DNA of 59,289 nt, counting the filler, from Squatina squatina (lineage: Eukaryota): the NCBI GenBank assembly GCA_031763465.1. It is 4 parts of 3 records of this genome, joined end to end, with 100 filler letters (N's around TTAATTAATTAA, not from the genome) between each part and the next. Parts side by side here need not be neighbours in the genome. Positions count along the whole stretch, not along the records: positions 28,183 to 44,006 come from JARFOE010000203.1; 3 more parts are not named here. One strand, written 5' to 3'. Under the pieces are notes generated by a model. The model was not told where the DNA came from, ran no database searches, and saw nothing but the letters and a program-made list of their open reading frames with translations. Position 1 is the stretch's first letter. Each line of letters starts with the position of its first letter. Shown piece by piece: positions 5,503 to 57,903 of the stretch. The position numbers were made by a program, and so were the translations under genes.

Positions 5503-6030
5503 TTAAAAATTCATGTAAATCCTCAGATCTTTCTCCCATGCTTTCTCCTTTGCCTCTCTCCTGCGTTCCTCCCTTCTGCTGACTGTAGCAGCCTTCTGCA
5601 CTCGACTGATTGGATTTTTCGGTCGCATCACTGCTTCGGAATCATTGGCATTAAAGTGGGTGACTTTCGGCTTCAAATCCTTCTGGAATCCTAGGCCCTT
5701 CTGATCTCTCTTCAGTACAGTCTTTACTGGGAACTTCTGCCCCTTGCCATCAGGTCCGAGACCAGTTTCCTTGTTCCAACCTTCCTTCAACATCATGTTG
5801 AAGCCGACGTTACTTTCTGGAATGAAGTAATATGTTGGCGCTGGCTTATCATTCTTATTGAACAAATGTAATGTCGACCTCTCATGCTGTTCGATGCTGT
5901 CTTCCTGGTATTCCACTTCACAAACCTGGCAGAATTTCTTCTGTGGGACCCCCTTCAGCTGTTCATTCTGTTCTTCCCATCGAGTGTGATAGTGTATGTG
6001 GAACGGACGATATACCGGAGACACCTTGCC
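5503..6030 (-). CDS. GPANK1: G-patch domain and ankyrin repeat protein 1 (BAT4), last coding exon; 5' boundary uncertain
   Basis: FCQVCEVEY..HERSTLH Cys/His motif, G-patch SNVGFNMMLKEGWNKETGLGPDGKG...RDQKGLG, and C-terminus REERRREAKEKAWEKDLRIYMNF resembling human GPANK1. Confidence 0.9.
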   Translation of the reverse strand, partial: GKVSPVYRPFHIHYHTRWEEQNEQLKGVPQKKFCQVCEVEYQEDSIEQHERSTLHLFNKNDKPAPTYYFIPESNVGFNMMLKEGWNKETGLGPDGKGQKFPVKTVLKRDQKGLGFQKDLKPKVTHFNANDSEAVMRPKNPISRVQKAATVSRREERRREAKEKAWEKDLRIYMNF

Positions 6031-6765
6031 CTANNNNNNNNNNNNNNNNNNNNNNNNNNNNNNNNNNNNNNNNNNNNNNNNNNNNNNNNNNNNNNNNNNN
6101 NNNNNNNNNNNNNNNNNNNNNNNNNNNNNNNNNGTAGCATTGTTTTCACACATTTTGGGGAAGTGTATGCATTCTTCCACTTCCATAGATATTTAACAGT
6201 TTTGGGAGTTAGTCTGTTTACATCTGGCCCCTTTCCTTTTGAGGCTCAGTATGCCTCAATTGTAATTTCAAGGTGGTTACTTCATCCTTCCCATTGCTTG
6301 AATGTAACGTTCCAACTTTCTGCTTCAGTGGTGTGTAGTTCCTGTTTCCTCCAAGAGGAAACTGCTGAATATCAGCAGCAAAAGAGGCAGTGGTGCCCCC
6401 AGTGACTTTATTCAGTTAGTAGATGCACCATACAGAGTGGGAAGATTAAGCCCTGGTCTCTGCTAAATTAGCTGTTCTCCACCAGGGTAGCCAATGGGTA
6501 CTAACAGTTGGCCTCTATTCCTGGAATAGGGAGGATAAACCTCACAATACCAAACCTATGAACACTAAGTTCATACCTGGAGTGTATGATCTCTTTCTTC
6601 CCCCTCCATTTTTTGTTGTCAATCAGCATATCACATGGTCATGATTTTATCAAGAACATATATACAGATGAAGCAAACAGTTCAGGACAGGACTGCATTT
6701 GAAAAACAAAAAGGAGCCTGCATTCTGTACTGAAAAGGGTTAATTATTTTGATGACTTTGTCCAG

Positions 6766-6866
6766 GCTGTTTCAAAGATCCGAGAATTCATTCTCCAGAA
6801 GATCTACTCTTTCCGGAAACCAATGACAAACTACCAGATTCCTCAGAATGCACTGCTCAAATACAG
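6766..6866 (+). CDS. VPS52: VPS52 (GARP complex) exon AVSKIREFILQKIYSFRKPMTNYQIPQNALLKYR
   Basis: tccag acceptor, AG|gtcaga donor, 101 nt; near-identical to human VPS52 as recalled. Confidence 0.93.
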
Positions 6867-7421
6867 GTCAGAGATCTGCTTGCAGCACTTTGAGTTCTAT
6901 ATTCTCAAAAGGGGTCATNNNNNNNNNNNNNNNNNNNNNNNNNNNNNNNNNNNNNNNNNNNNNNNNNNNNNNNNNNNNNNNNNNNNNNNNNNNNNNNNNN
7001 NNNNNNNNNNNNNNNNNNTAGCTGTAAAGCCATTTGGGACATTTAGTGGTCGTGAAAGGCGCTATATAAATGCAAGTCTTTCTTTTTATTAGATTCTTCT
7101 TGATGTTCGAGAATCCTTCCCTGACTTCGTGCCACCTTCTTTGCCTGGCAGTCATCTTGCTATCTTGTAAAATATGATAATAGAACAGAAGACCTTGCAG
7201 CTAATCGATTTGCTGCTACCACAGTCTGTGCATGATGTCCCCAATCATGGACTCCCCCTTCCAAGATCTTTATACTTCCTTCCTAAACCCATGCGAATTA
7301 AATAGACTTTTTAATATATCCAAAACGCTTGGTCCCCTTTTTCCGACAGGCATTGATCCAATTGCTTTTGAAAAGATATCAGTAGACTCAGAAGTCATTA
7401 CTTTTTCTGGTCACTAGACAG

Positions 7422-7522
7422 ATTTTTCTACCAGTTTCTTCTGGCGAACGAGCGTCATGTAGCAAAGGAAATCCGAGATGAGTACGTTGACACTATGAGT
7501 AAAATCTACTTCTCGTACTTCA
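7422..7522 (+). CDS. VPS52: VPS52 next exon, truncated by gap (FFYQFLLANERHVAKEIRDEYVDTMSKIYFSYF)
   Basis: cag acceptor at 7419-7421; phase continues the previous exon (AG|A = Arg). Confidence 0.93.
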
Positions 7523-8425
7523 NNNNNNNNNNNNNNNNNNNNNNNNNNNNNNNNNNNNNNNNNNNNNNNNNNNNNNNNNNNNNNNNNNNNNNNNNNNNNN
7601 NNNNNNNNNNNNNNNNNNNNNNAGAGTCTGCACAAGGCACAACTAACTAAGTCTGCACATGGGTGTAAATGGCTACTCTGAGCATAAGGGATGCATATTT
7701 AAACAGTCTCTTCAGTTTGGTAATTATTATCGTCTCCGTGTATTTATCCATTCTGGTGAATGCACTTTGGGGAGGATTGGTATTTCAAAGGCAGAGGAGT
7801 AATCGATGATTTATTATAATCCAGTGGAGAATTTGTGTGTTTGAATCTTATCTAAATAGTATAATTATCCTTGGAATTCCATTCCCAGTACATGTTCTGA
7901 TGTATTCACTGCCAAGGACAGTTCCTTAATGTGTAGTTGCATGTGCTGCACACTAACACTGTCTGCACTGTACTGAGTCTTGTTGATGTAACAACCTCTT
8001 GTAGGCAGAGGGCTGGTCTAGAGCAGTGTATGATGCCAATACGTGACCAGTACATGTAGATATTAGGATTGTAAATGCAAGGTGAGTCAGAAGGTAACTT
8101 ACTTTAACTTGAAACTTTCAGGGAGCACTGACTCAGCTGATCCAATACTATCATCGATTCCACAAGGTCCTCGCTCAGCCTCCTTTCAAGAACCTTCCCG
8201 TGCGCTCAGATCTCATCAATATCCACCATCTCATGGTCGAAGTGAAGAAACACAAACCCAACTTCTAACTGCCTGTAAAAGTGTCACTTTCTTTCTCTAT
8301 CTGTCCATGTTGTTTGTACTACACTAGAGCGACGGTGTAAGGGTTAAATGCAAATATAATGACAATGGTGTTCTCTTTGTGCTGCCAATGCAAATGTTCA
8401 TTGGCTACAATGAAGTCGAGAGTGT

Positions 8426-8602
8426 GGAGTCCCGAGAGCATAAAGCGAGAGAGAGTGGAGACCCGAGAGTATAAAGTGAGGGAGGGAGCGGAGACCCGAG
8501 AGTATAAAGTGAGAGAGGGAGCGGAGACCCGAGAGTATAAAGTGAGAGAGGGAGCGGAGACCCGAGAGTATAAAGTGAGAGAGAGCGGAGACCCGAGAGC
8601 AT
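8426..8602 (+). repeat. Minisatellite, ~33-bp unit GAGACCCGAGAGTATAAAGTGAGAGAGGGAGCG, 5+ copies running into a gap
   Basis: Unit starts at 8458, 8491, 8524 and 8557. Confidence 0.95.
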
Positions 8603-8966
8603 NNNNNNNNNNNNNNNNNNNNNNNNNNNNNNNNNNNNNNNNNNNNNNNNNNNNNNNNNNNNNNNNNNNNNNNNNNNNNNNNNNNNNNNNNNNNNNNNNN
8701 NNGGTTAACCACATTGTCGGACAAGGAACGCCAGATTCTAGTTAATCCACAGCGTGTTTGTTCCAGGAGGGTAGAGAAAGCAGAGGCTCGCACTGCGCTT
8801 TCCAGCCCGGACACCCCATAGCCTTGTGCAAAGATGCGCTGATTTTTATTTTTAAATAAAAAAAGAGTGGAAAAGAGAAAAGGCAAAAAGACTATGGGTT
8901 TTTTTTTCATTTTCTTTATTGGCTGGCTGCTCACAGAACGGAGAGACACTTTGCGGCTCCTACCAA

Positions 8967-9063
8967 TCACTCGTCGCCCTTTGCCTGTGCCCGCAGGAAG
9001 CTGGCTTTCCGCTGAGCGACACGGTCCTGCCGCTGTGCCAGGGACAGCTTGGCTCGGTTCCAC
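8967..9063 (-). CDS. RPL5 (uL18)-like, last coding exon ([31 protein letters not shown])
   Basis: cccacag acceptor, TGA at 8969-8967, minus-strand AATAAA at 8920-8915; homologous to RPL5 [26 protein letters not shown]. Confidence 0.9.
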
Positions 9064-9437
9064 CTGTGGGGAACACAACGCGAAGGAGGGAGGGGAGGGT
9101 TCAGTCCCAGAAAATATCCGCATGCAGCCTCCATCAAACTGCGCCAATCAATCAACGCAACAAAAATCCACCTGCGTGGCCGAGGTACCCTTTACCGCCC
9201 CGTGACCACCAGTCCGAAGGACACCGGATGCACACCCACCCTTCCCAATGGTGACCAAACACAGCATTGCTGGATGTTTAAACTCCCGACTTCCCTTGCG
9301 CACATGCCAGACCAATCTGTGTCAGAGCCCACTGGCCCATTGCTTTGCTCAGTGTAAACTCTTCCCGGTCACTCTCCACCATCCCCCCATGCCCCCCGCC
9401 CTCACACACACACACACCACAGAATTCCAGCACTCAC

Positions 9438-9529
9438 CGTTTGGGATGGGCAATCTCCTTCTTGGATTTCTTCTCGTGGGTCGGGTTTGCCCGGATCTCC
9501 CGGTGGGCAGTTTTGTAAATTCCCTCCAC
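9438..9529 (-). CDS. RPL5 (uL18)-like, penultimate exon (VEGIYKTAHREIRANPTHEKKSKKEIAHPKR)
   Basis: ttgcag acceptor, CG|gtgagt donor, 92 nt, splices in frame to 9063; aligns to RPL5 [30 protein letters not shown]. Confidence 0.88.
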
Positions 9530-9914
9530 CTGCAAGGACCCAAACAGCTGTCAGTTCCACACTGCTAGGACGCCGCGGATAAGTGCTGCCCGTCGGGGGA
9601 AGCGAGGGGCTCGCGAGCCACAAGTATCATCCTTGCACCCCACCCTCACCATAGAAAGGACACACAGCGACGTCCCATTCACTCACTCCGACACACCCAT
9701 GAAGTGACACCCCCTCCCCTCCCCGAAACACACTCACTGTGCTTGCAAAGGTCAGATGCTCATCACCAAAGCGGGTTCCTGTCTGTCACTCCTCCTAAAC
9801 ACACCGCTAAGATTCTCAAAGTCAGGCACCAGCCATCCAAAGATTTTAAACGTTATTAAATGGGCAGGAATTGTTGGGGCAGCCCACGACCGCTCCCATC
9901 GGGCGAAGGTCATA

Positions 9915-10240
9915 TGGTGGTCCAGTGGCATTGTGGTGATGTTACAGGATTAGTAACCCAGAGATCTCAAGTTCACATTACATCATGGCAAGTTATGAAT
10001 TCAATAAATCTGATGATTTGTGGGCTGGCGCCAGAAAATTAACCATTAATAATGCTGGATTGTCATAAAATCCAGTGGTTCACTGATTTCCTTCAGCAAA
10101 GGGAACCTACCATACCTACCTCCATCTGGCCAACATGTGCCTTCAGTCTCGCACTGCATGATTAACTCTTAATGCCCTCAGGGTAACTAGGGTGGGCAAT
10201 AAATTCTGCCACTCCAATGTTGCCCAAATCCCAAGACGAA
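9915..10240 (+). mobile_element. Old tRNA-type SINE with GGCAACTAGGGATGGGCAATAAA-type LINE tail (approximate)
   Basis: Tail at 10180-10235 matches the LINE 3' ends at 11150-11230(-) and 55390-55450(+). Confidence 0.55.
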
Positions 10241-11139
10241 GGCACTTCTAATGATTTTCTACTGAAAGTGATTGAACACACATGTCTAAATATTGGCAGG
10301 AATATTTAAATAACACGACCCAGATTTTGCAGTTGTAAGGATGGCAAAATTGTCAGAGTTCGCTGTCATTACCCTGTGAAACTGACAACAACTGCTGGCA
10401 GCCACACATGCGCAGTTAAATTCAGAAATCCAGAAGTTATTGCTGTCAGTGATTCCCTGCTCCTCCACAGGGCACGCTGAAGATCCTGCAGACGGCACAG
10501 AATCAGTGATTTGATGAACTTCCCCTTGTACGCTGCAATATCACTGTTAAAACCCCTGTTAAAACGTTGAGGCTTGTTCAATGAGGCGTATCTGAGTTTT
10601 TAATGGTATACCAAGTCATAAGCACTACTGAACAACCTTTCTGGCCCTGAAAATTGAATTTTATACTTGTGGATGTCAAATTTTTCCATTATAAAAATTC
10701 CATATTTTAATAATTTTTTTTAAAGTTTATATTTCATCTTCTACCTTTATCCCATGTGTATGTCCCAATTTTTATTTCACTCTAAAATAATTAAAAGTGA
10801 AGGAAAATCAGTACACTTTACTTCCTGGTTTGTTGTCTGTGAGAATTCTTCAATTAGATTGACTGTTTCACACACTGTTGACGTCACTGTTGCTGGATAG
10901 CAGAGATCCCCTAGACATGGCGCCAGATTCAAATTAACACCAAGAAGTGTGAAACTGATGCCACAGAAATCGCTAGATCTTTGTTGGAAGCTTTCTCGAG
11001 GTCAGCGGCAAGCGCTGCCACTTTGCCGCTGACCTCAAAATTCGAGCTATAGTTAATGAAAGGTAACATTATACAATCTGACCTTACATCATTTAACCGG
11101 AGTGATACTAGAAATGCAAGTGCAGATTGCTTTTTTTTT

Positions 11140-11970
11140 TTAAAATATTTTTTCTGGGATGTGGGTGTTGCTGGTAAGGCCAGCATTTATTGCCATCCCC
11201 AATTGCCCTCGAGAAGGTGGTGGTGAGCCGCCGCCTTAAAGCGCTGCAGTCCGCGTGGTGTGGGTACTCCTACAGTGCTGCTAGGGAGGGAGCTCCAGGA
11301 GCGACGATGAAGGAACACTGATATACTTCCAAGTCAGGATGGTGTGCAACTTGGAGGGGAACGTGGAGGTGATGGTGCTCCCATGCACCTGCTTGCCTTG
11401 TCTGTCTAGGTGGTAGAGGTTGCGGGTTTGGGAGATGCTACCAAAGAAGACCTGGCGAGTTGCTGCAGTATACCTTGTGGGTGGTACATTCTGTAGCCAC
11501 AGTGCGTCGGTGATGAAGGGAGTGACTGTTGAAGGTGGTGGATGGGGTGCCAATCAAGCGGGCTGCTGTGTCCTGGATGGTGTCGAACTTCTTGAGCTGC
11601 ACTCATCCAGGCAAGTGGAGTGTATTCCATCACACCCCTGACTTGCGCCTTGTAGATGGTGGAAAGGTTTTGGGGAGTCAGGAGATGAGACACACACTCC
11701 ACAGAATACCCAGCCTCTGACCTGCTCTTGGTGCCACGGTATTTATGTGGTTGGTCCAGTTAAGTTTCCGGTCAATAGTGCCCCCCAAGGATGATGGTGG
11801 GGGATTCTGCGATGGCAATGCCGTTAAATATCAATGGGAGGTGGTTAGACTCACTTGACGGAGATGGCCAATGCCTGGTACTTGTGTGGCGCGAATATTA
11901 CTTGCCACTTATCAGCCCAAGCCTGAATGTCGTTCAGGTCTTGTTGCATGCGGGCATGGACTGCTTCATT
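11140..11970 (-). mobile_element. CR1/L2-superclade LINE 3' portion
   Basis: HLLTPQNLSTIYKAQVRGVMEYTPLAWMSAA frame plus 3' tail ending near 11140. Confidence 0.8.
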
Positions 11971-12517
11971 TGCTGTCCAGCATTGTTCTGTTGGCAGAAG
12001 GGGTGGGGCGGGGGTGTAAATTTAAATTTTGAAGCGTGGGATTTTTAAAATAACATTAAGTTATTGCCCTTCAGCTACTGTGAAAGTAGCTAGCCACATT
12101 CTGCTGCTGCAGGACCAAAGGCCTGCAGCAGTGATTTTCCTCTTTCTTGAGGAGTATCCCTGCCAAAATTATGTAAATATGGTTGACCCCGAAAAAATTG
12201 GCCAGTGTCAGAAGTAGAGACACAACCAGAGGACAGGAAGATGTCCCACCCCACCAAAGTTCCGATGGGATCCCTCATTTTCCCTCCTTTAGTGTGATAT
12301 ACTTTTAGCTGGGAACAAATTACCTGACACCACATAGCAAAACATAATTTATGGAGTTATTTTAAAAAAAAGAACAAAATAGTACGGATGCTGGAAATCT
12401 GAAATAAAAACAAAAAANNNNNNNNNNNNNNNNNNNNNNNNNNNNNNNNNNNNNNNNNNNNNNNNNNNNNNNNNNNNNNNNNNNNNNNNNNNNNNNNNNN
12501 NNNNNNNNNNNNNNNNN

Positions 12518-13274
12518 CTCACCCGGGTCCAGGGCAAGAAAAGCAAAGTCTTTGTTTACATCAATGAGCTATGTACGGCGCTCAAAGCCAACTCCCAAAA
12601 AACAAAGCTCGCCCTGGCCAACAGGGAGAGTTCAAAGCAGCTGCTGGCCGGGGCCGAGGGCCAGTCTGACACAGTTGCTAAGGAGCAGGCCGACTGCCCC
12701 GACAGGACTTGTGCACAGTCGGGGGATGTGGCCTCCACATCTGTATCGCAACCCGCTGCCACCGCCGGAAAAAAGCACTCGGGCAGCGGGTCGCGCCGGC
12801 AGATCCGCTATCTGGAGAACCTCTTGAAAGTTTACACCGATGAAATCAAGCGGCTTCAGGAGAGGGAGCTGGACTTGAATGAGTTGGAAGATGAGGATTC
12901 CTCTTACATCCAGGAGCACCGGCTCAAGAAGAAGATGGTGAAGATCTTCGAGAAGCTGTGCGAGCTGAAAAGCTGCTCGAGCCTGACTGGCCGTGTCATC
13001 GAGCAGCGCATCTCCTTCACGGGCACACGCTACCCCGAGATCAATCGCAAGATCGAGAAGTTCATCAACAAGCCTGATCACTTCCCCGACTACCAGGACA
13101 TCAGGAATATCATGCACAAAGTCAGCACCAGGCACACCTTGGGGCTCAGCCAAAGACAGATTCAGAGCATGGCGCAGGACGTGTTCCGGGAGGTGGGCAA
13201 TCGTCTGCAGGAGAGGCGCCACCTCGACCTGGTTTACAACTTTGGCAGCCACCTCACTGACGATTATAAGCCAG
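12518..13274 (+). CDS. DAXX: Death domain-associated protein, large exon (helical-bundle end + histone-binding domain); 5' end in gap
   Basis: Open frame from 12518: KVFVYINELCTALKA...GSRRQIRYLE...CSSLTGRVIEQRI...LQERRHLDLVYNFGSHLTDDYKP, G|gtgggt donor. Confidence 0.96.
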
Positions 13275-14888
13275 GTGGGTAGGCGTTGATAACAGGCATG
13301 AGGTTCTGGCGGGGCAAGGGGAGAAGACGGNNNNNNNNNNNNNNNNNNNNNNNNNNNNNNNNNNNNNNNNNNNNNNNNNNNNNNNNNNNNNNNNNNNNNN
13401 NNNNNNNNNNNNNNNNNNNNNNNNNNNNNNGACCCCTCAGCTGGGGGAAATAGGTCCTTCCTTATTTTGTACATCTCAATCCAGTCTCCCCTTGTCCTCC
13501 TCTGTTCCAAAGAGGCCAATCCCAGCCTATCCAGTCATTGACGGGCTCTGTGCAGTAAAACCGATTTCTGGATGTCCAAAACTGTAAGCCTCTGCACGGG
13601 ACTGAGATCGCAGCCAAGACCATAATCGGCGCACGTTTCCCACAGCCTCGAAGGCAGCAGGGGGAAATATTGGATTAGTGGATTAAAATAAAACTCCCCG
13701 CACCTTGGGCAGAGTGTTCTCTACTCTGGGAACCGCTGCGTGCTACTTTCTGCCTGCTAGTCATCGCCGAGCCCTGAGAACTGTGCTGTAGGTTACAAAA
13801 TACGTGGCAAGGGAGTGACTGGTTATTGAGGCTGAATCCAAGTTTGGGAATACTCTGCTGATCTTGGTCTTAGAACCTACGCATTCCAACCTACCTGGCT
13901 GCCTAAGCTAGTTCTGCTTCTGTTACAGTCGTGAGTAGTGAATGGCAATGTCCTGATGATCTGTTGTACAGTGTTGACCAGTGAACAGCAACTGGCAACA
14001 ACTTGTATTGTGCAGGCCTTTTATGTCCTGCTATTTGGTCCCTTTCCATTGGGTCGACACTGCATCTGCCAGAGAGAGCTGGTCATTGGAAATGCATCGA
14101 ATCTGTACCAACAAGGATCTAACTTGCTGCACACTTGGTTCTGTTGCCTGAGGTTTTGATTGTCCCTGCTCTCCAGGATGCTCTCCTCACAGTTCCCCCA
14201 TTGTTGTGGTGCACTCTGCTCCAGCTGGTGAAGTGCTGTTTAAAAACTAGCAGGGCTTGGGAGAGGAGCAGGCGAGCGGAAGTGTTTATGCAATCCTGGG
14301 CGATGGTGGTCTTTCCCTCTCGTCACTGATTCTAGGATGTGACTGCACAGTCTGTTCCTTGCTGACTTACCGTCTCGTGGGTGAACCTAGACCAGTCACT
14401 GAGCGAACAGTTCGGGCTGTGTAATGCTCCCTGATATTGTGGACAAGGCCTGTTGTCAGCTGTGTAACGCGCTTTGGACTGGAGAGGTGAGGAGAGGGTT
14501 GCAGTGTTCTCTCCAGGTAAATGCTTTCCCATGTACCTTTGGAATGTGCAGTGTGTGGGGATTTTGGTCCTTACTGATGTACAGTGTTGGTTGTGTCTGT
14601 GCAGCTCAACAACCTCCTGCACCTGATCATCAGCTGGCTCGGCCAGTATTGTTTATTTATTTGTCCTGGATTTATTGAAGATCTCTTTGTGGCTACAAGG
14701 AAAGAACTTGCATTTCTATGGAATATTGGCCCATCTCTTGCTGTCTCAGTACTTCACATACAGTGACATAAATACAAGTCCTTTCCTTTAGTGGAGAGGA
14801 GTGAAAGGGCCTTGACGTTTAGTAAAAGTGTGCACCTTGTTTCATGAGCTTGTTTCTTGACCTCTTGTGCTTTGTGTGTGTGTTTCAG

Positions 14889-16275: not shown

Positions 16276-16596
16276 CTAGACCCAGAAAGAGAGAGAGAGA
16301 NNNNNNNNNNNNNNNNNNNNNNNNNNNNNNNNNNNNNNNNNNNNNNNNNNNNNNNNNNNNNNNNNNNNNNNNNNNNNNNNNNNNNNNNNNNNNNNNNNNN
16401 CTCGGCTGCCCCCGACCTTTTGCATCTCGGGCGGGCGGGGAGGGAGGGAGGGAGCGCGAGTGGGTGTGTGTCGGGGGCTCAGTACCACACCGGGTGTGAG
16501 TTCAAGCTCACTCAGCACAGGCCGGGGACGGAGCCTCGGCCTGTTTTGCTGATGCTGGGTGACTCCCCTTCCCCCGACGCGACCGGACATTCCTAC

Positions 16597-16777
16597 CTGA
16601 TAGTAGTAATCGTCTAGGTAGGGGTCCGCGCTCTGCAGCTGCATCATTTGGATCTTGCTGACCCACTCCTTCTCCCGCTGGGTCATCAGGTTGCTGTAGG
16701 GGTCCTTCTTCATCTGCTCGTGATAGCTGCCCCTGCTGTGCCTGTCTCCTCCAGACCCATTCTGCCCTCGGTGCTGG
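16597..16777 (-). CDS. PATL1: PAT1 homolog 1 exon ([60 protein letters not shown])
   Basis: ctctcag acceptor, CAG|gtagga donor; conserved PAT1 mid-domain motif. Confidence 0.9.
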
Positions 16778-17097
16778 CTGAGAGTGGCAAAGAGAGAAAC
16801 CGACTAAGGGCCAGACACACGGGGGCGAGAGCGCGCCACAGAGCGAGGGGGCGAGTGCGCGACACAAAGTGAGAGAAACACCAATCAATGCTTTTTGAAT
16901 CTTTTCGGGACATCTGGCTCCAGACTGTCTCCGCAGCGTTTGGTTAACGGAGTACATTTTCTGCAGTTGATCCGTGCCCCGTCCCGCTGCTCTCACCNNN
17001 NNNNNNNNNNNNNNNNNNNNNNNNNNNNNNNNNNNNNNNNNNNNNNNNNNNNNNNNNNNNNNNNNNNNNNNNNNNNNNNNNNNNNNNNNNNNNNNNN

Positions 17098-22945: not shown

Positions 22946-23194
22946 CTGGGGATCAGAGAGACAAATAACAGGAATCAGAGTTAATTAATAAGAATATTAC
23001 TAATTACTGATACTACTAATAATGTACAGTGTTTTTTAATAACACTTACTGATACTCATAATAATGTGTTTATTCTACTAATAATGCACAATGTTTATCA
23101 GTAACACTTATTGAAGTGTTTATTAATAGCACTAATAATAGTGTTCAGTGTTACACATTCAATTATAAACACAATCTCACAGACTGGTACTTAC

Positions 23195-23368
23195 CGCAGT
23201 TCCTGTATTTTACAATCGCCTTCACCCAGAGCCATCAACAGCGGTACCACTCCTGAATCTCTCAGTTTAGGATTCCTGCTAAGTTCCAGAATTGTCAGTG
23301 ACCGGTTTGTACTGAGAGCGGAGACAAGATCCTCAGCACAAAAATCTATGATACTGACATCAGCCAGC
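23195..23368 (-). CDS. NLR LRR exon (LADVSIIDFCAEDLVSALSTNRSLTILELSRNPKLRDSGVVPLLMALGEGDCKIQELR)
   Basis: ctccag acceptor, CG|gtaagt donor, 174 nt. Confidence 0.9.
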
Positions 23369-23493
23369 CTGGAGATCAGCAACAAAGATGAAAANNNNNN
23401 NNNNNNNNNNNNNNNNNNNNNNNNNNNNNNNNNNNNNNNNNNNNNNNNNNNNNNNNNNNNNNNNNNNNNNNNNNNNNNNNNNNNNNNNNNNNN

Positions 23494-24085
23494 NCATCTT
23501 TCCATTCCTATCTTTCCTGTACAACCTATATCTAGGAATATTTAATACCCAATCCTGCACCTTTTTTGTACCAGATCTCTGTTATTGCCACAACATCATA
23601 TTCCCATGTAGCTATTTGCGCCTGCAGGTCACCAACCTTGTTTACTATGCTTTGTGCGTTCATATTCATACACTATAAACCTATCCTGTGCTCTCAATTA
23701 GTCTAACCCCACCTAATACCTTACTATTTCTTGCTTTAGTGCTATGCATCTCTCCCAATCCTTTGTACTCTTTGTTTCTCTTTTCTAATTCTACATCCTG
23801 GTGCCCATATCCCTGCCAAGAGGCTTTGTTGAGATGTAGGTCCCAGCTCCCCCAGAACTGGCCCCAATGCCCGAGGAATCTGAAGCCCTCCCTCCTGCAC
23901 CATCTTTCCAGCCACGTATTCATTTACTCTATCCTCCTATTTCTATACTTACTCATGTGGGCACTAGGAGTAATCCAGAGATTACTACCTTTGGAGTCCT
24001 GCTTTTTAATCTCCTTCCTAGCTCCCTAACATCTGCCTGCAGGACCTCATCTCTCTTTCTACCTATGTCGTTGGTACCAAAATGG
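23494..24085 (-). mobile_element. CR1 LINE ORF1 esterase-like end / ORF2 start
   Basis: HFGTNDIGRKRDEVLQAD...KVVISGLL, NTWLERWCRREGFRFLGHW and QDWVLNIPRYRLYRKDR. Confidence 0.88.
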
Positions 24086-24291: not shown

Positions 24292-24447
24292 ATGAAGTAT
24301 CTGATTGTGTGTTCAAGTCTCTGGTTGGGACTTGATGCTCCAAGCTTCCGACATGTGTTATAATCAACAGTTTTTGTTCTTCATGATCGATCGTGTTTGC
24401 CCAATGAACTCAACTAATATAATGGAGTTTCTAAACATTTGTCCCAG

Positions 24448-26187
24448 ATATTCAGGGGAAACATCGTGAATCACTTCGTGCCGAGAATGAGAGGCTGCTG
24501 GTGAGTGGTATCCAGGGAATGATGATCCAGACATTCTTGCTGTCTGAGTGCTACACCGAGCTGATCATCATCGCCAACGTTCGTGAACGGAGGATTCTCG
24601 AGCACGAGTTATGGGCTCGGGGCAGAGACCATGAGGAGTGGCAAAAGAAACTGGTGAGGGACGAGCTGGAGAAAATCCGCATTCACCAACTGTTCAAAGA
24701 TTCCTTCGGTAAGAGCAGCGTGGCTGGCACCACGGTGGTGAGCGGAGTGGCGGGCATTGGGAAAACCACAATGGTGCAAAAGATCGTCCACGATTGGGCA
24801 GCCGGGCAAATGTATGGCCAGTTTAACTTTGTGTTTCACTTCAAGTTCCGAGACCTGAATGCTATTTGTGGCAGGACAAGTGTGAAAGCATTGATCCTGG
24901 ATCACTACGCTTACTTTGAAGGAGTGATCCAGCATCTGTGGGAGGATCCTCTGGGCATACTCTTCATCTTCGATGGGTTGGATGAGTTCAAGCACACCAT
25001 CAATTTTGATGAAAGTGAGGGAAACAGTGAGGTGGAGCGAGCCTGTTTCGATCCGGAATGTCACTGTGAACTTGCAGACATTGTGCGCGTCTGGTACAGC
25101 AGAGGGTGTTAAAGGGCTGCTCGGTGCTGATCACAAGCCGGCCTCATGCTCTTGGCTCATTGGAAAGGGCGGATGTCAACCTGTGGGCTGAAATCTTGGG
25201 CTTCTTTGCTGAGGAAAGGAGAGAATATTTCAACAAGTTCTATGAAAGTGTTGATGTTGCAGCAGCTGTGTTCAGACAGGTGGAACAGAATGAGATCCTG
25301 TACACCATGTGTTATAACCCTTCCTACTGCTGGATCCTCTGCTCATCACTGGCTCCCATCTTCTCAAGCCTGGAACAGAATCAGCAACTGCCTAGAACCA
25401 TCACTCAGCTCTTCTCCAATTACATTTACAACATTTTAAACAACCACGCCCGCGAGGTGGAGAATCCCCGCCATGTCTTACTCAACGCTGGCAAGATGGC
25501 TCTTGAGGGAGTCTCCAGGAGAACCATTGTCTTCGATCAGAATCATTTACAGCGGCACAAGCTCCAACCCTCCAAGTTCGTCTCGGGGTTCATGATGGAA
25601 ATCCTGGAGAAAGACTACTCCGCGACCAGCGTGGTATATACCTTCTGTCACCTCACTGTACAGGAGTATTTGGCTGCTCTCTCACCCTATTTGAAGACAG
25701 TTCCGGAAAACCTGACGAAGCTGCTGGAGAAAGCTGAGAGCCAGGACGATGGGCGATTTGACATATTTCTCCGTTTTATGGCCGGTCTCTCCGCTCCGAA
25801 CACGTCTCAGCAGCTGGTGAAGTTCCTGGGCGATTTCCAATGTGAAGCCACTTGCCAAGTAAAGCTTTGGCTGACGCAAAAAGTGAAAGACCAGCTCTCA
25901 AACACACAGAGCAAGGAAGACAGGAGGAAGCTGATGAACACCTTGCACTGTGTGTTTGAATCTCAGGATAACCTGACACGCTTCACAGGAGGTTGCAGAC
26001 TCAATGTTAAGCTGGGCCACAGCAGCGAACCAGAGGCAATAAGACTGAATCCAGTAGATTGCTTTGTACTGGCAGCTGTTCTGGGACCGTGTGACACCAT
26101 ACAAGAGCTGGATCTTAATTATTGCTACATACAAGCTGAAGGGATTCAGCGGCTCGCTCCCATACTGCACAGGTGTAAAATACTCAG
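24448..26187 (+). pseudogene. NLR (NLRC3/NLRP-like) NACHT exon with a 1-nt frameshift at ~25089
   Basis: cccag acceptor, AG|gtagga donor; Walker A GVAGIGKT, Walker B LFIFDGLDE, sensor LITSRP, YTFCHLTVQEYLAA, first LRR; the frame changes between ORFs 24501..25112 and 25106..26191. Confidence 0.88.
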
Positions 26188-26806
26188 GTAGGACTCCTGT
26201 AGCCTGTAGTGGGGGTGAAATTGGACATGTGCGCGGTCGTGTGTCGTATATGCCCACCGTTATCGGACATACCCGAGATTCAGTTCCACTGAAGTAAATG
26301 ACACTGAATACTGCCAATTTCTCCAAATTCTACTCAAATTTACAGATATGTTGGACAAATTGACAAATCGACCGTTCACTGAAATTATTCGCTGTTGTCT
26401 TGTTTGAACAGAATTTGAGTATTTTTAAAGCATGTGACTTAGTGCAGATATTGAGTGGTGCTGGAGAGGGTTATTTTGCCTTGCTCACTATTTCAGTGGA
26501 TCACACATTTTTACACCAATCCGGGCACTGCCAGGTGCAGCAGAGCGACAACTAAAACAGATCATTCATTTGATCAAGCGCAATAGAAGGCCACAAGTGA
26601 GAGGCGGGCTGGAATAGTTGGGAATTGAAACAAACTGTTGTGAGAGCTGATGCATCCGGACAAGAAAATTTCCCATCTGGATTTTTTGCGTCAACCGAGA
26701 GTTGCANNNNNNNNNNNNNNNNNNNNNNNNNNNNNNNNNNNNNNNNNNNNNNNNNNNNNNNNNNNNNNNNNNNNNNNNNNNNNNNNNNNNNNNNNNNNNN
26801 NNNNNN

Positions 26807-26943
26807 CTGACACATTGTCCTTCTTCTCAAACCTCTTGCCGCAAATGTCGCAGGAGAACTGGTATCCAGACTCGGCATCATGTTTCTTCATGTGCCAATT
26901 CAACGAGGCTTTCTGTCTGCAGGTAAATCCACAGATCTCACAC
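26807..26943 (-). CDS. ZFP91: ZFP91 exon with the last zinc fingers (CEICGFTCRQKASLNWHMKKHDAESGYQFSCDICGKRFEKKDNVS), truncated by gap
   Basis: Long pyrimidine tract + tccag acceptor; matches human LNWHMKKHDADSFYQFSCNICGKKFEKKDSV. Confidence 0.9.
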
Positions 26944-27479
26944 CTGGAGAGAGGGGGAGGGGGAGAGTGAGAGAGGGAGAGAAGGCGAGAGAGGGAGAGA
27001 AGGCGAGAGAGAGGGAGAGAAGGCGAGAGGGGGCGAAAGAGGGTGAGGGCAAGAGAGAGAGTGGAAGAGTGATCAAAATCTGATAGAATTTCACATTGGA
27101 TTTGAGAGTGAAATACTTAAGTCCAAAACTAGAGTCTCAAACTTCAATAAAATCAATTATATAAGTAGCTGTTGGTTAAGATTGATTGGGAAATTAGGTT
27201 AAAAGATATGACGGTCGATAAGGAGTATCAAACATTTAAAGAAATATTCCAAAATTCTCAACGAATATGCATTCCATTGAGAAATAAAAACTCTACGAGA
27301 AAAGTGGTCCACTCATGGTTAACTAAAGAGGTTAAGGATAGTATTTAATTAAAAGAGGCTTATAATGTTGCGAAGAATAGAAGTAGGCACGAAGATTGGG
27401 AGAGCTTTAGAAACCAGCAAAAGATGATCAAAAAATTGATAAAAAGGGAGAACATTTCACCTTTCATGGCCACTGGATG

Positions 27480-28182: not shown

Positions 28183-28896
28183 AGAGATGCCAAAATGGAC
28201 AAGAGCCAAATCCATGAAATCGTGCTGGTGGGGGGATCTACCCGAATCCCAAAGATCCAGAAGCTTCTGCAGGATCTATTTAATGGGAAGGAGCTGAATA
28301 AGAGCATCAATCCTGATGAGGCAGTGGCTTATGGGGCAGCTGTACAAGCAGCCATTCTGAATGGAGATACCTCGGAAACAGTGCAGGACCTGCTCCTTCT
28401 GGATGTGACACCCCTATCACTGGGCATCGAGACAGCTGGGGGAGTGATGACAATCCTGATCAAGAGGAACACAACTATCCCCACCAAGCAGACCCAAATC
28501 TTCACCACCTACTCAGACAACCAGCCCGGGGTCTTGGTCCAGGTGTTTGAGGGTGAGCGAGGCATGACCAAAGACAACAACCTGCTGGGCAAGTTTGAGC
28601 TGACAGGAATCCCACCAGCACCTCGGGGTGTCCCTCAGATAGAGGTCACCTTTGACATTGACGCCAACGGAATCATGAATGTTTCTGCTGTGGATAAAAG
28701 TACCGGAAAGGAGAATAAAATCACCATCACCAATGACAAGGGACGTCTGAGCAAGGAGGACATTGACAACATGGTGAATGAGGCAGAGCGTTACAAAGCA
28801 GATGATGAAGCACAGCAACAGCGGATAACTGCCAAGAACACCCTTGAATCCTATGCCTACAGCATGAAATCCACGATGGAAGATGACAACACAAAG
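28183..28896 (+). CDS. Cytosolic HSP70 (HSPA family), 5'-truncated exon: ATPase-domain end and substrate-binding domain
   Basis: [15 protein letters not shown] signature, [18 protein letters not shown] linker; homology ends at ...DDNTK|gtagga. Confidence 0.96.
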
Positions 28897-29834
28897 GTAG
28901 GAACGAACACTCATATCATATAGCAAATTTCTGAGGAAATAGGTGGACAGACTATTAAAGACTGGAGCGTGTAGGCATCAGAACAAAAGAGTAGTTGCAA
29001 GGTGCTGTGCAAGTTATGCATTTTGAGCTGACTGTAGATCATGTGTGTTTATATAAATTCTCATGAATTGTGGGATTCTTAGAAAGAAAAATAATACTTT
29101 TTTTTGCAGGGCTTCGGGGAAAGGGTGGGGGAGTGGGACTAGCTGAGGTGCTCTTGCAGAGAGCCGGCACAGGCTCGATGGGCCGAATGGCCTTCTTCCA
29201 TGCTGTAACCATTCTGTGATTCTATGATTTAGCACAAGTGAATCTGCCCGCTTGAACAAACAATGATGTAAAGCACTCAGCTCTGCACAGTCCACCACAT
29301 CACGGGAAGTGTTGTCTTGACCACAGTAGGCAGTCGAAGAGCAGAAACCCAAGCCAGGGTACAGGAGGATTAATGCAGTGAAATGGCACGGAGCACTTGC
29401 ATCCCTCTACTGATCTGAGATGCTTAAACAAAAGGAGTTCCCCAAGGGACTTGTGACTGTAATTATTAAATGTATAAAGTGCTTAATGAAACTGTTTCCA
29501 ATATATCATTTTGAACCAAATATGGAACCAAAGGATGTAAGTGTTGACCCTTCAGTAAAATTAAAATAACGTTTTACAAAAATGTTTCTGTCATAACAGT
29601 GCTGGCCACCATCAGGCACCAGGATGGAGCTCAGTCAACCCTCTATGGCTCTTCTTGCCAATTTTGAGCTCTCCCTCCTCTGCAGCAGACACAGAATCCT
29701 TGCTCGGATACAGTTCCATGGGGACTGCTTGCCTTCTGCTGACCTGTCGAAGTGGTCAGTGCCAGCAGGGTTTATAAACATAGGGTCATCACAGCCCACC
29801 TTTAGTCTGTCTCACCTAATGGGGACATGCGTAA

Positions 29835-29988
29835 TACACAAAGACACACACACACAGACACAACCACACGCACACATCCTCACATACATGCACATATACA
29901 ATCATACGCACACACATTCACACATATAATCACACACAATCCCGCGTGCATACATACATAGACACAATCACTCACACATATACACACA
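29835..29988 (+). repeat. Degenerate (CA)n tract (another at 52507-52650)
   Basis: Seen directly. Confidence 0.9.
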
Positions 29989-30810
29989 NNNNNNNNNNNN
30001 NNNNNNNNNNNNNNNNNNNNNNNNNNNNNNNNNNNNNNNNNNNNNNNNNNNNNNNNNNNNNNNNNNNNNNNNNNNNNNNNNNNNNNNNTTTCAGATTGAA
30101 CTACATCCCTTTCAAACTTAATGAAGAATTCTATCATATTATGGTCACTCTTCCCTAAGAGCCCCTGAAGGAGCTGACTCTGGTTGGATTCAGTTCTGCC
30201 CTTTCACCGATTCCCCTCCCTCTCCTTCCCTCAAGGTGCTCACTCTGTAAAACTGAACCCAACCAGAGTCAGTACATTTAGGAGAGGAGGTTAGAAGATT
30301 GTAGGGACAAAGAACCTTTGCTAACTGAGGGAATCCAAACTTCTATTGTATAAGAGGGTGATCATTACCAATCAACTGCTGATCTACTGTAACTTCTTTA
30401 TTCAGCTATAAAGTTATGGGCAAAAGATTCAGGCTTTATACAGGACCCAAATTCAGATAAAATGTTGCGGTACAAATAGAATCCTCTTATTGAAGGAGTG
30501 TGGGAAAAAGAAAATGGAAACAAGACTGAAATAAGAAAATATTTTCAATTGTTAAGATATTCTTCACCTGAATCTTCATTTGGTCATAGCCCATGTGAGT
30601 TTTGGAAACACTTTGGTTCCTTGGGTAAAATCTGAGTCAATGTCTATGACAACAAATATGACAGTCCAATGCACAACCTAAAGATATATTTATTTAACCC
30701 TTGCTATTTATCAATATGATATGAAACTTACTGTCTATTTTTGGGATCTAATCCTCAAAATCCAACTATGAGCTCTAACCCCCAACTATCACCACAGCGA
30801 ATCCAAAACT

Positions 30811-31200
30811 TTCACTGTCCATCAACAAAACTAATTTCCTCACTGTCCATCAGTAAGACCAATCTCCTTAGTGTCCATCAGTAAGCTCAAGTTCCTCACT
30901 GTCCATTAATAAGACCAATCTCCTCAATGTCCATCAGTAAGCTCAAGTTCCTCACTTTCATCAACAAGACCAAGTTCCTCACTGTCCATTAATAAGACCA
31001 ATCTCCTCAATGTCCATCAGTAAGCTCAAGTTCCTCACTTCCAGCAATAAGACCAATCTCCTCACAGTCCTTCAACAACGCCAATCTCTTCACTGTCCAT
31101 TAACAAGACCAATATCCTTACTGTACATCAAGCAGACCAATCTCCTCTTCATCCATCACCAAGCTCAACTCCTCACTATCCATTAGGAAACCTCAGTATC
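30811..31200 (+). repeat. Minisatellite, ~28-bp unit CACTGTCCATCARTAAGACCAATCTCCT, ~14 copies, in the HSP70 intron
   Basis: TGTCCAT recurs every 27-28 nt with two alternating variants. Confidence 0.9.
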
Positions 31201-31360
31201 CTTCAACAAGACCTGCCAACACTGCCATCACTCAATAAGAGCTTACACCTGTCCTTCCATCAGTGAGATCCAAACCTCAGTGTCCATGATTGAGAATTAA
31301 CTCCACTACATCAGCCACTTAATGGATTTGAGCTTTTTATGTTCCATTTTATCTTTCCAG

Positions 31361-31609
31361 GGTAAAATGAGTGAAGATGACAAACAGAAAGTCTTGAACA
31401 AGGTGAAGGAGACGCTGGATTGGCTAGATAAGAACCAAATGGCTGAAAAGGATGAGTTTGAGTTTCATCAAAAAGAGTTGGAGAAGGTGTGTAACCCTGT
31501 CATCACCAAGCTGTACCAGAGTGGCGCTGCCCCTGGCCCAGGGGGATTCCCTCAAGGAACAGGAAATGCCCCAGGATCTGCTGGACCAACCATAGAGGAA
31601 GTGGACTAA
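31361..31609 (+). CDS. HSP70 last exon ([12 protein letters not shown]...GPTIEEVD*)
   Basis: tttccag acceptor, phase 0; continues exactly after ...NTK and ends in the cytosolic EEVD motif. Confidence 0.95.
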
Positions 31610-32138
31610 ACCCTGGAGAAAGAAAATTGGACAAAAAACGATACTCCGCCTGAGATGATTCAACTAAAAAAAGCATATTACTTTCTTCAAACTCAGTTAG
31701 TCTCTACAATTCAGATTTATTTTTTAACTATAAAGTAAAGANNNNNNNNNNNNNNNNNNNNNNNNNNNNNNNNNNNNNNNNNNNNNNNNNNNNNNNNNNN
31801 NNNNNNNNNNNNNNNNNNNNNNNNNNNNNNNNNNNNNNNNNGGGGTGTGAGCTCAGCTTCCCCTACCCCAGTCTGCTGCTGCTGCTGCAGCCTGTTGTGT
31901 GCCATCTTGGCCTGCAAAAGAAAGGAAGCTGTGTGAGAGCCATTCCAATTATATATGTGGAAGATATGCCTGCCCTGGTTCATAGCTGTGAATGTAGGCA
32001 AGGTGTGAAATGAGGCTATGACTGTGATTAGGCACAGATGATTGGTGCTTGCATGTTGGATTGAGTGCTGCTTTGCAGACTGTGAACAGGCAGAGCCTCA
32101 GAGGCTGGTATGTAAGAGTAATTTAAAAATGTACTCAC

Positions 32139-39727: not shown

Positions 39728-39970
<243 letters not shown>

Positions 39971-43733: not shown

Positions 43734-43815
43734 GTGTTTCTGGTGAGAAAGATCAAAGCACCTGATTCAGGTCAGCTCTATGCCATGAAGGTCCTGAAGA
43801 AAGCAACACTGAAAG
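43734..43815 (+). CDS. p90 RSK (RPS6KA1/2/3/6 family) N-terminal kinase exon (VFLVRKIKAPDSGQLYAMKVLKKATLK)
   Basis: ttgcag acceptor, G|gtagga donor, 82 nt; the paralog cannot be resolved from one exon. Confidence 0.92.
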
Positions 43816-44006
43816 GTAGGATCCTGATCAACACACAACAGAGACAGTGTTCATAGAGGATGCAATGATCAGCAGAAGGGCTTATGAAGGATGGAGGGGG
43901 CAGTGGAAGAACAGTATTAATGGGCAATATATTGTGTCCTGAATGCTGAATATAATGGGGCTGAAATTGTGATCCCCCAGGTGGTTACGATATTCCCACG
44001 CACCCG

Positions 44007-56817: not shown

Positions 56818-56970
56818 CCACGCCGGGCTTGTTGGGCTACATCAGTTTGCTTTGAGTTGCAGTTGCTGTAAGGATCGCGTCTCCCCGGCGCAGAGTGATG
56901 TGTGCATAGTTTGAGCTTTGCATTTTTAAGATTAAATCGTCTATTTTTAATATATATCTAGTTTGGAACA

Positions 56971-57219
56971 ATGAGTGGAACCTATGAGAAAAAGCTGCCC
57001 AGTCTTCTGACGGACATGCAGGGCTCTATGGGATGTCACCCTGCGAAAGATTCTCCAACTCTGCCAGAGTCTACGGCCACAGATATTGGTTACTATAACC
57101 CACAGTCCTGCCATCCTCAGCACGATTATTATCCGACTTCAGCCTATTCTCAGCCGGTGAACCACTATCCGTACCATCAGTTTAACCTGAACAACATTCC
57201 CGGGCCTGGCTCCTACTCT
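56971..57219 (+). CDS. DLX3: Distal-less homeobox 3, exon 1 (recognisable part)
   Basis: [15 protein letters not shown]...[23 protein letters not shown]...HQFNLN..G.GSYS aligns to the DLX3 N-terminus; homology stops at the minisatellite. Confidence 0.88.
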
Positions 57220-57903
57220 TTATCCTGGTCCCGGCTCCTTCACTCTCTCTATCCCGGGCCTGGCTCCTTCTCTCTATCCTGGGCCCCAGCTCCTCCTCTC
57301 TCTCTCTCAGGCCTGGCTCCATCTCTCTCTCTTTCCCATGCCCGGCTCCTTCTCTCTCTCTATCCCGGGCCTGGCTCCTTCTCTCTATCCTGGGCACAGC
57401 TCCTTCTCTCTCTCAGACCCAGCTCCTTCTCTCTCTCTATCCCAGGACCAGCTCCTTCTCTCTATCCCAGGCCCGGCTCCCTCTCTCTATCCCGGGCCTG
57501 GCTCCTTCACTCCCTCTATCCTGGGCCCGCCTCCTTCTTTTTATCCCGGGCCCGGCTCCTTCTCTCTATCCAGGGAGCGGCTTCTTCTCTCTTCCTGGGC
57601 CCGGCTCCTACTCTCTGTCCATCCCGGGCACAGCTCCGTTTCTCTCTCTCTCCCGGGTCCGGTTCCTTCTCTCTATCCCGGGCCCAGCTCCTTCTCTCTA
57701 GCCTGGGCCCGGCTCCTTCTGTCTCTCTATACCGGGCCCAGCTCTTTCCTTCTCTCTATCCTGGTCCCGGCTCCTTCTCTCTCTCTATCCAGGGCCCAGC
57801 TCTTTCTTTCTCTCTATCCTGGGCCTGGCTCCTTCTCTCTATCACAGGCCCGGCTCCTTCACTCTCTCTATCCCGGGCCCGGCTCCTTCTCCCTATCCCG
57901 GGC
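57198..57903 (+). repeat. Minisatellite, ~22-28-bp unit CTCTCTATCCCGGGCCYGGCTCCTT, running into a 217-N gap
   Basis: Seen directly; the first unit overlaps DLX3 codons IPGPGSYS. Confidence 0.95.

What the first reader, a model, noticed from the sequence alone, without database searches (positions are those of the whole stretch)
28183..31609. Cytosolic HSP70 with an intron at a non-HSPA8 position
Seen: 714 nt of uninterrupted coding sequence, then a phase-0 GT-AG intron at ...DDNTK|GKMSE..., then an uninterrupted last exon to EEVD. Known: HSPA8 has introns near YGA|AVQ, IQ|VYEGE, DKG|RLS and KNQ|TAE, all absent here, and inducible HSPA1A/HSPA2/HSPA6 coding regions are intronless. Inference: a distinct HSP70 lineage that gained an intron in an intronless-type gene, which is rare in vertebrates and could affect expression under heat-shock splicing inhibition. 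A gap lies in the intron, but donor and acceptor independently mark the same codon boundary.
Basis: partly seen in the sequence, partly recalled or inferred. Interest (0 to 1): 0.7.

Follow-up and report, generated by a model that had tools for sequence, protein, structure and literature searches.

The report
Shark HSP70 paralog with new intron
Sharks and a chimaera carry an extra, old copy of the HSP70 chaperone gene, and in this shark its second half lacks the introns of the housekeeping HSP70 gene but is split by one intron at a different place, likely gained after the gene arose as an intronless copy, which makes it a modest gene-history finding rather than a new mechanism.

Summary
There is a phase-0 GT-AG intron after HSPA8 codon 559, and the four HSPA8 introns (374, 441, 508, 585) are absent. 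A relative's contig joins exactly these exons, and two relatives' DNA keeps the intron's 3' part.

The gene belongs to a distinct paralog annotated only as 'HSC71-like' in 11 sharks and Callorhinchus (clade support 100/99). It is separate from shark HSPA8 and from the MHC-type hsp70. Full-length trees favour the single-coding-exon branch (with HSPA2 913/1000, or with HSPA2 plus hsp70 773/1000, depending on taxa). The ATPase domain alone favours HSPA8 (811/1000), and AU tests reject neither placement. HSPA2 orthology is therefore unsettled.

Best reading: an early retro-derived HSP70 that gained an intron at an AAG|G site (0.55). The 5' half, the promoter and the intron's age across chondrichthyans could not be seen. 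The heat-shock splicing idea has no support here. Interest 0.35.

The parts
28183..28896 (+). Coding stretch, HSPA8 codons 322-559 (end of ATPase domain, linker, substrate-binding domain, start of lid); cut at its 5' end by the contig start; no intron at HSPA8 sites 374, 441, 508
   Evidence: (PF00012, E 3.5e-98)
28897..28902 (+). 5' splice site GTAGGA after exon end AAG (phase 0, codon 559|560)
   Evidence: joint
28897..31360 (+). Spliceosomal GT-AG intron, 2364 known bases plus a 100-N spacer
29103..29230 (.). High-copy interspersed repeat (SINE-like is my inference) in the intron
   Evidence: summed contig depth up to 1.7 million in DNA runs
29836..29986 (.). CA-rich microsatellite that ends the first contig
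29989..30088 (.). 100-N spacer between two contigs, true length unknown
30089..30270 (.). Second high-copy repeat at the start of the second contig
   Evidence: depth about 1e5 in 4 of 4 runs
30812..31185 (.). 28-bp minisatellite, 13.4 copies, in the intron
31297..31360 (+). Branch-point-like motifs (31297, 31319), pyrimidine tract and AG acceptor
   Evidence: contigs of X2, X7 and X23 cross it
31361..31609 (+). Last coding exon, HSPA8 codons 560-646, ends EEVD-stop; no intron at HSPA8 site 585
31610..31741 (+). 3' untranslated region, cut by the contig end; the spliced contig runs 146 nt further
   Evidence: table 8

Best explanation
This is the 3' half of an intact cytosolic HSP70 gene of a shark-and-chimaera paralog group, split by one spliced intron after codon 559 that was likely inserted into a gene which likely arose as an intronless retrocopy of the housekeeping HSP70 mRNA. 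Shown: the intron, its removal in a relative's contig, the absence of four HSPA8 introns, purifying selection, and a separate clade as old as the shark-chimaera split. Inferred: (1) the gene branched off with the single-coding-exon HSP70s (HSPA2, HSPA1/hsp70), possibly as the chondrichthyan counterpart of HSPA2; (2) the intron entered at an AAG|G proto-splice site, at a date not fixed here; (3) the protein works as an ordinary ATP-driven chaperone that binds TPR co-chaperones through EEVD (established family knowledge); (4) the gene is probably not the main heat-inducible copy, so an intron would cost it little.
For: Exact joint with GT..AG ends in X16. Intron 3' part plus exon continuous in DNA contigs of X2 and X7 (31090-31736; 36 and 41 differences). 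22 of 31 listed coding differences to X16 are synonymous, against 0.22 expected, and 5 of 7 in the last exon of X2. Orthologs in 12 species; the window nests among them (99); clade 100/99. Lineage+HSPA2 in 913 of 1000 bootstrap trees with 43 rows. Lineage+HSPA2+hsp70 in 773 of 1000 with 37 rows. Lineage+HSPA8 only 34 and 89 of 1000. Human HSPA2, HSPA1A/B/L and HSPA6 have one coding exon and are attributed to retrotransposition of HSPA8 (PMC2266713, passages and Table S1). Three fish-type hsp70 loci on 3.8-7.6 kb contigs are single open frames (L017, L023, L032). No break at residues 545-575 in 317 aligned HSP70 proteins, while breaks recur near known HSPA8 sites. The junction context is AAG|G, with 3 letters fitting either side.
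Against: Placement is unstable. The ATPase domain alone gives lineage+HSPA8 in 811 of 1000 trees and lineage+HSPA2 in 1 of 1000. AU tests reject neither lineage+HSPA8 (p 0.235) nor lineage+hsp70 (p 0.141). Lineage+HSPA2 fell from 913 to 200 of 1000 when the taxon set changed. HSPA2 was represented by frogs only. Codons 1-321 are unseen, so HSPA8 introns 69, 137 and 188 may be present. No intron map of any other chondrichthyan, cyclostome or invertebrate chordate gene could be fetched, so gain versus ancient retention is untested there. X16's kind is not on record; RNA is inferred from its 80 Mb contig total. PMC1309616 mentions three zebrafish hsp70-like copies with 1-3 introns at their 3' end, positions not given in the passage read.
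Confidence: 0.55

Rival explanations
1. DNA-level duplicate of HSPA8 (an ohnolog or segmental copy) that lost its 3' introns by recombination with a cDNA, may keep HSPA8's 5' introns, and gained the 559 intron separately.
For: ATPase-domain tree groups it with HSPA8 in 811 of 1000. AU p 0.235. HSPA8 ATPase-domain chains score highest (765 bits against 734 for HSPA2 and 727 for HSPA1A, over slightly different lengths). 3'-biased intron loss is a known pattern (recalled).
Against: Full-length trees give 34 and 89 of 1000 and the substrate-binding domain 2 of 1000. Likeness to slow-evolving HSPA8 can be shared ancestry. The reading needs four losses plus one gain.
Confidence: 0.25
2. The 559|560 intron is ancestral in chordate HSP70 and was kept only in this lineage.
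For: The lineage is one of four deep vertebrate branches in an unresolved node. One odd Heterodontus model of an HSPA8-like gene becomes nearly identical to its relative only from residue 561 on (P0049).
Against: No such site in human HSPA8 (Table S1) or at the aligned region of HSPA5 and HSPA9 (Figure S3 text). 79 of 80 metagenome HSP70 loci are continuous across 550-570 and the other ends before it, a weak control because most look like transcripts. No break there in 317 proteins.
Confidence: 0.1
3. A heat-inducible hsp70 whose new intron throttles its output when heat shock blocks splicing.
For: Several residues are shared with hsp70/HSPA1. AU does not reject lineage+hsp70 (p 0.141).
Against: Lineage+hsp70 in only 6 and 46 of 1000 trees. 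Sharks and rays have their own hsp70-clade genes on other contigs (Heptranchias 21.1 against 45.0 Mb; Rhincodon 25.1 against 44.6 Mb).
Confidence: 0.07
4. Assembly artefact: two unrelated contigs, or a pseudogene with an insertion, joined by a spacer.
For: The window is a chain of small contigs. A neighbour in the same block (NACAD-like) is on another chromosome than the ortholog in Chiloscyllium punctatum (146.3 against 84.5 Mb). No listed contig bridges the gap.
Against: Both halves best match the same protein without a gap. Splice signals on each contig mark one codon boundary. The spliced form exists. Selection is purifying.
Confidence: 0.03

Closest known systems
Chondrichthyan 'heat shock cognate 71 kDa protein-like', 642-643 aa (e.g. 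XP_067863022.1 Heptranchias, XP_067867062.1 Heterodontus, XP_020382438.2 Rhincodon, XP_007893079.1 Callorhinchus)
   Same: Orthologs: 87-94% identical over the 320 visible residues in the 8 compared, one clade.
   Different: Database models with a generic name; their exon structures could not be viewed, so the intron may already sit in those models. No paper on them was found in 10 searches.
HSPA8/HSC70 (incl. shark and ray HSPA8-like, fish hspa8b, hagfish hsc70)
   Same: Cytosolic HSP70 ending in EEVD; 82-84% identical over the visible part; closest in the ATPase domain.
   Different: Introns 374, 441, 508 and 585 absent; new site 559; outside the HSPA8 clade (96/93; 93/82), which holds its own shark and ray members.
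HSPA2 (HSP70-2)
   Same: Most frequent sister group in the 43-row tree (913/1000) and in the substrate-binding domain (949/1000). Shares residues such as T82, T113, E333, D516, Y547, M586 (also seen by eye in human HSPA2, 5fpn).
   Different: HSPA2 has one coding exon and a 5' UTR intron. The grouping drops to 200/1000 with other taxa. PMC2266713 placed HSPA2's origin in tetrapods. Synteny untested.
HSPA1/fish hsp70 (MHC-type, stress-inducible by recalled knowledge)
   Same: No HSPA8 introns in the coding region; part of the same branch in the 37-row tree (773/1000).
   Different: 75-79% identical; a separate 100-supported clade with its own shark and ray members, on other contigs.
Intron gain in originally intronless vertebrate genes (domesticated genes, retrogenes; PMC3257199 abstract)
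   Same: New intron in a gene whose likely ancestor had none.
   Different: No coding sequence is lost, so this is insertion rather than intronization of exon sequence; it concerns an old chaperone paralog in cartilaginous fish, not placental mammals.

Membership tests
Cytosolic HSP70 (human group VI) | HSP70 domain with conserved linker and substrate-binding region | tested here: met
   PF00012 329.8 bits; gap-free alignment to full-length orthologs
Cytosolic HSP70 (human group VI) | C-terminal EEVD | tested here: met
Cytosolic HSP70 (human group VI) | ATP-dependent chaperone activity | not testable with these tools
   inferred from family and purifying selection
U2-type spliceosomal intron | GT donor, pyrimidine tract, AG acceptor, frame restored on removal | tested here: met
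U2-type spliceosomal intron | Spliced form exists | tested here: met
   contig of X16 in a related organism, run kind not on record; not shown in the window's own organism
HSPA8/HSC70 | Introns at 374-1, 441-3, 508-1, 585-3 | tested here: not met
   0 of 4 present
HSPA8/HSC70 | Introns at 69-1, 137-3, 188-3 | not testable with these tools
   5' half not in the window; no genome held
HSPA8/HSC70 | Nested in the vertebrate HSPA8 clade | tested here: not met
   outside it; a sister position is not rejected (AU p 0.235)
HSPA2 | Single coding exon | tested here: not met
   coding intron at 559|560
HSPA2 | One clade with tetrapod HSPA2 | tested here: inconclusive
   913, 810, 949, 1 and 200 of 1000 by data set; frog HSPA2 only
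HSPA2 | Conserved neighbours of the human 14q23 locus | not testable with these tools
   window neighbours are not reliable; no genome held
HSPA2 | Germline-enriched, not heat-induced expression (recalled) | not testable with these tools
   only contigs of unlabelled runs were available
HSPA1/fish hsp70 | Nested in the hsp70 clade | tested here: not met
   sister position 6 and 46 of 1000, AU p 0.141
HSPA1/fish hsp70 | Heat-shock elements and induction | not testable with these tools
   promoter not in the window

The most novel reading that the evidence does not exclude
This is the cartilaginous-fish ortholog of HSPA2, or a fourth jawed-vertebrate cytosolic HSP70 lineage lost in bony vertebrates. 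Either pushes the split of the intronless HSP70s back to the gnathostome ancestor, against the published tetrapod origin of HSPA2. It gained a coding intron, is kept by sharks and chimaeras, and was apparently lost in rays and skates.
Probability: 0.45. Interest if true: 0.5.

Novelty: new variant of a known kind. Interest (0 to 1): 0.35.

Why it matters
Intron gain inside vertebrate coding sequence is reported as rare (PMC3257199 abstract). In human cytosolic HSP70s only HSPA8 has coding introns (PMC2266713). A datable gain in a shark paralog would give a phylogenetic marker, and a natural test of the idea that heat induction selects against introns in HSP70 genes. It would also revise the history of HSPA2. 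It offers no new biochemistry or regulatory mechanism, and the protein is already in databases under a misleading HSC71-like name.

Tried and rejected
No genome is held for the window, so the 5' half and promoter were out of reach.

Runs: no RNA holder was listed. In X19, X20 and X23 no listed contig joined the exons, and most of the first exon had no cover in the four runs.

Synteny from the window: exons of a NAC-alpha-domain gene (NACAD-like) and an RSK kinase lie in the same block. I first read the former as HYPK from the Pfam name and corrected this. The NACAD-like gene is on another chromosome than the ortholog in C. punctatum, so I dropped the synteny argument.

Other scans: Rfam gave 2 weak hits below gathering score. 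The metagenome scan gave no shark locus. The alternative C-terminus of the Pristiophorus X1 model is not in the window. The bacterial promoter scan was irrelevant.

Papers: 10 searches found none on this lineage. PMC8423806 has no 'intron' or 'shark' in its main text, and PMC10751288 has no 'HSP'. A 2002 shark HSP70 phylogeny paper, recalled only, is not held and may cover this paralog.

Earlier scan notes: 8 shown by sequence, all unrelated; none by words or place. No fold or complex job was sent.

Full report
The window. It is a chain of 47 pieces of at most 3.7 kb. They are separated mostly by 100-N spacers, by a few 10-N gaps and one 217-N gap, and by three 44N-linker-44N spacers. No whole genome is held. 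The nearest proteins are from sharks, best Pristiophorus japonicus, so the source is a shark; that is an inference from similarity. The HSP70 piece starts exactly at a contig start (28183), and its intron holds one 100-N spacer.

Observation. 28183-28896 reads 238 codons without a stop and is followed by GTAGGA. A pyrimidine tract with AG ends at 31360, and 31361-31609 reads 82 codons to EEVD-stop. The two translations align gap-free to residues 324-643 of the Pristiophorus protein, 300 of 320 identical. The junction is HSPA8 codon 559|560, phase 0. Table S1 of PMC2266713 (supplement part 3 of 4 read) gives the HSPA8 sites 69-1, 137-3, 188-3, 374-1, 441-3, 508-1 and 585-3. The four inside the visible part are uninterrupted here. 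The same table shows one coding exon for HSPA2, HSPA1A, HSPA1B, HSPA1L and HSPA6.

Splicing and conservation. I laid 8 of the 24 listed runs. In 1 of 4 runs (X16, another organism, kind not on record) a 1985-nt contig covers both exons and skips exactly the intron with GT..AG ends. It has 32 differences in the first piece and 20 in the second, and extends 746 nt upstream. I take it as RNA because its contigs total 80 Mb, like the RNA-guess runs and unlike the 2-4.5 Gb DNA runs; a processed copy in DNA is not excluded. In 2 of 4 runs (X2, X7), contigs run from 31090 through the acceptor to 31736, so relatives carry the intron's 3' part. X23 has an unspliced 279-nt contig over the acceptor. No listed contig bridges the spacer. 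Of 31 coding differences listed for X16 (the table shows 40 of 85 rows), 22 are synonymous against an expectation of 0.22; in the last exon of X2, 5 of 7 are. The intron holds two high-copy repeats, a CA tract and a 28-bp minisatellite, and no Rfam family at gathering score.

Family. The last exon found 462 proteins, 120 listed. The top 8 rows are chondrichthyan 'HSC71-like' proteins at 78-96% identity and 138-169 bits, and the first non-chondrichthyan hit has 110 bits. Cluster look-up gave 12 proteins from 11 sharks and Callorhinchus milii. No ray or skate ortholog was among the 120 rows or, although ray HSPA8 and hsp70 were found. That is a hint of loss, limited by the word index. In a 77-row tree the window nests among the orthologs (99), nearest Pristiophorus. 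The lineage has 100/99 support and lies outside both the HSPA8 clade and the hsp70/HSPA1 clade, each of which has its own chondrichthyan members (43 of the 77 rows; 37 rows, 29 of them from the 77). It is on other contigs than the hsp70-clade genes in Heptranchias and Rhincodon.

Placement is not settled. With 43 rows: lineage+HSPA2 913, +HSPA8 34, +hsp70 6 of 1000. With 37 rows and more outgroups: lineage+HSPA2+hsp70 773, +HSPA2 200, +HSPA8 89 of 1000. With 33 rows under a simpler model: without tails +HSPA2 810; substrate-binding domain +HSPA2 949; ATPase domain +HSPA8 811 and +HSPA2 1. AU tests reject neither +HSPA8 (p 0.235) nor +hsp70 (p 0.141). At lineage-fixed sites, 11 states are shared only with frog HSPA2, 10 only with HSPA8, 5 only with hsp70 and 42 with no group. 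Human HSPA2 shows several of the HSPA2-shared states (read by eye) but could not be added to the trees.

Gain or retention. Against an old intron: no such site in HSPA8, nor at the aligned region of HSPA5 and HSPA9. Three fish-type hsp70 loci on multi-kb contigs are single frames. 79 of 80 metagenome loci are continuous across 550-570 (weak, most look like transcripts). No break falls at 545-575 in 317 aligned proteins, while breaks recur near known HSPA8 sites. For caution: one Heterodontus model becomes nearly identical to an HSPA8-like protein only from residue 561; a 2005 zebrafish survey mentions hsp70-like copies with 3' introns (PMC1309616, passages); and no cyclostome or invertebrate chordate gene structure was seen. 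The intron's age is bounded only by relatives about 94% alike in DNA, not by the protein lineage.

How it most likely works. An early retrocopy of HSC70 mRNA, the origin PMC2266713 proposes for the human single-exon genes (passages), gave a branch from which this paralog split before sharks and chimaeras diverged. An intron was later inserted at AAG|G and then collected repeats. The spliced mRNA encodes a normal 643-residue cytosolic chaperone. The intron, splicing, selection and clade are shown; the retro-origin, gain and role are inferred (0.55). Rivals: an HSPA8 duplicate with 3' intron loss (0.25), an ancestral intron (0.10), a heat-inducible gene throttled by its intron (0.07), an artefact (0.03).

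Synteny failed as evidence. The block holds NACAD-like and RSK exons, but in C. punctatum the NACAD-like gene is on a 146.3 Mb contig and the ortholog on one of at most 84.5 Mb.

Novelty. The proteins are in public annotation, and the intron may be in those gene models, which I could not view. Ten searches of the open-access library found no description. What I saw of each paper: PMC8423806, abstract and passages; PMC2266713, passages and one supplement part; PMC1309616, passages; PMC3257199, abstract; PMC10751288, a term search only. Subscription papers, including a recalled 2002 study of shark HSP70 paralogs (not held), and unread supplements may bear on this. That HSPA2 is germline-enriched and not heat-induced, and that hsp70/HSPA1 is inducible, is recalled. 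Verdict: a real feature, a new variant of a known kind, interest 0.35.

Noticed in passing
window 1-59289: 47 small pieces joined by N spacers; three spacers carry a 12-base linker that has stop codons in all frames (15207, 28127, 44051). Adjacency in the window is not proof of linkage.
   Followed up: yes
window 5506-13279: Exons with G-patch, Vps52 and Daxx domains in one block; GPANK1, VPS52 and DAXX are MHC-region genes in human (recalled), so this block may come from the shark MHC chromosome.
   Followed up: partly
window 24435-26188 (+) and 23191-23541 (-): FISNA-NACHT NLR gene whose NACHT domain is split between two reading frames near 25070-25110: a frameshifted copy or an assembly error. 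An LRR-like piece (read by eye) lies on the neighbouring contig.
   Followed up: partly
window 39774-39895 and 43734-43816: Single exons of a NACAD-like gene (98% to a Pristiophorus protein) and of an RSK kinase closest to RPS6KA1 among solved structures.
   Followed up: yes
window 31481-31496; protein P0144: The Pristiophorus isoform X1 model leaves the last exon at a point where the window has a GT donor-like site and ends without EEVD: a possible alternative C-terminus, or a model artefact.
   Followed up: partly
No ray, skate or Scyliorhinus ortholog of this lineage among the listed hits, while rays have many near-identical 640-aa hsp70-clade copies (14 members in one cluster).
   Followed up: partly
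P0003-P0005, P0123-P0130, residue 264 (HSPA8 numbering): Most shark orthologs have His where all other groups have an invariant Arg in the ATPase domain; this is near the co-chaperone-binding surface (recalled).
   Followed up: no
P0049 (Heterodontus 'allergen MAG29-like'): 156-aa model whose last 82 residues match an HSPA8-like shark protein from residue 561, next to the codon of this intron; a truncated retrocopy or an exon boundary.
   Followed up: partly
window 16405-16803 (-), 26808-27116 (-), 56962-57300 (+): Exons resembling PATL1 and ZFP91 (names recalled; Pfam gave no hit and C2H2 fingers) and a Distal-less homeobox N-terminus (PF12413).
   Followed up: partly
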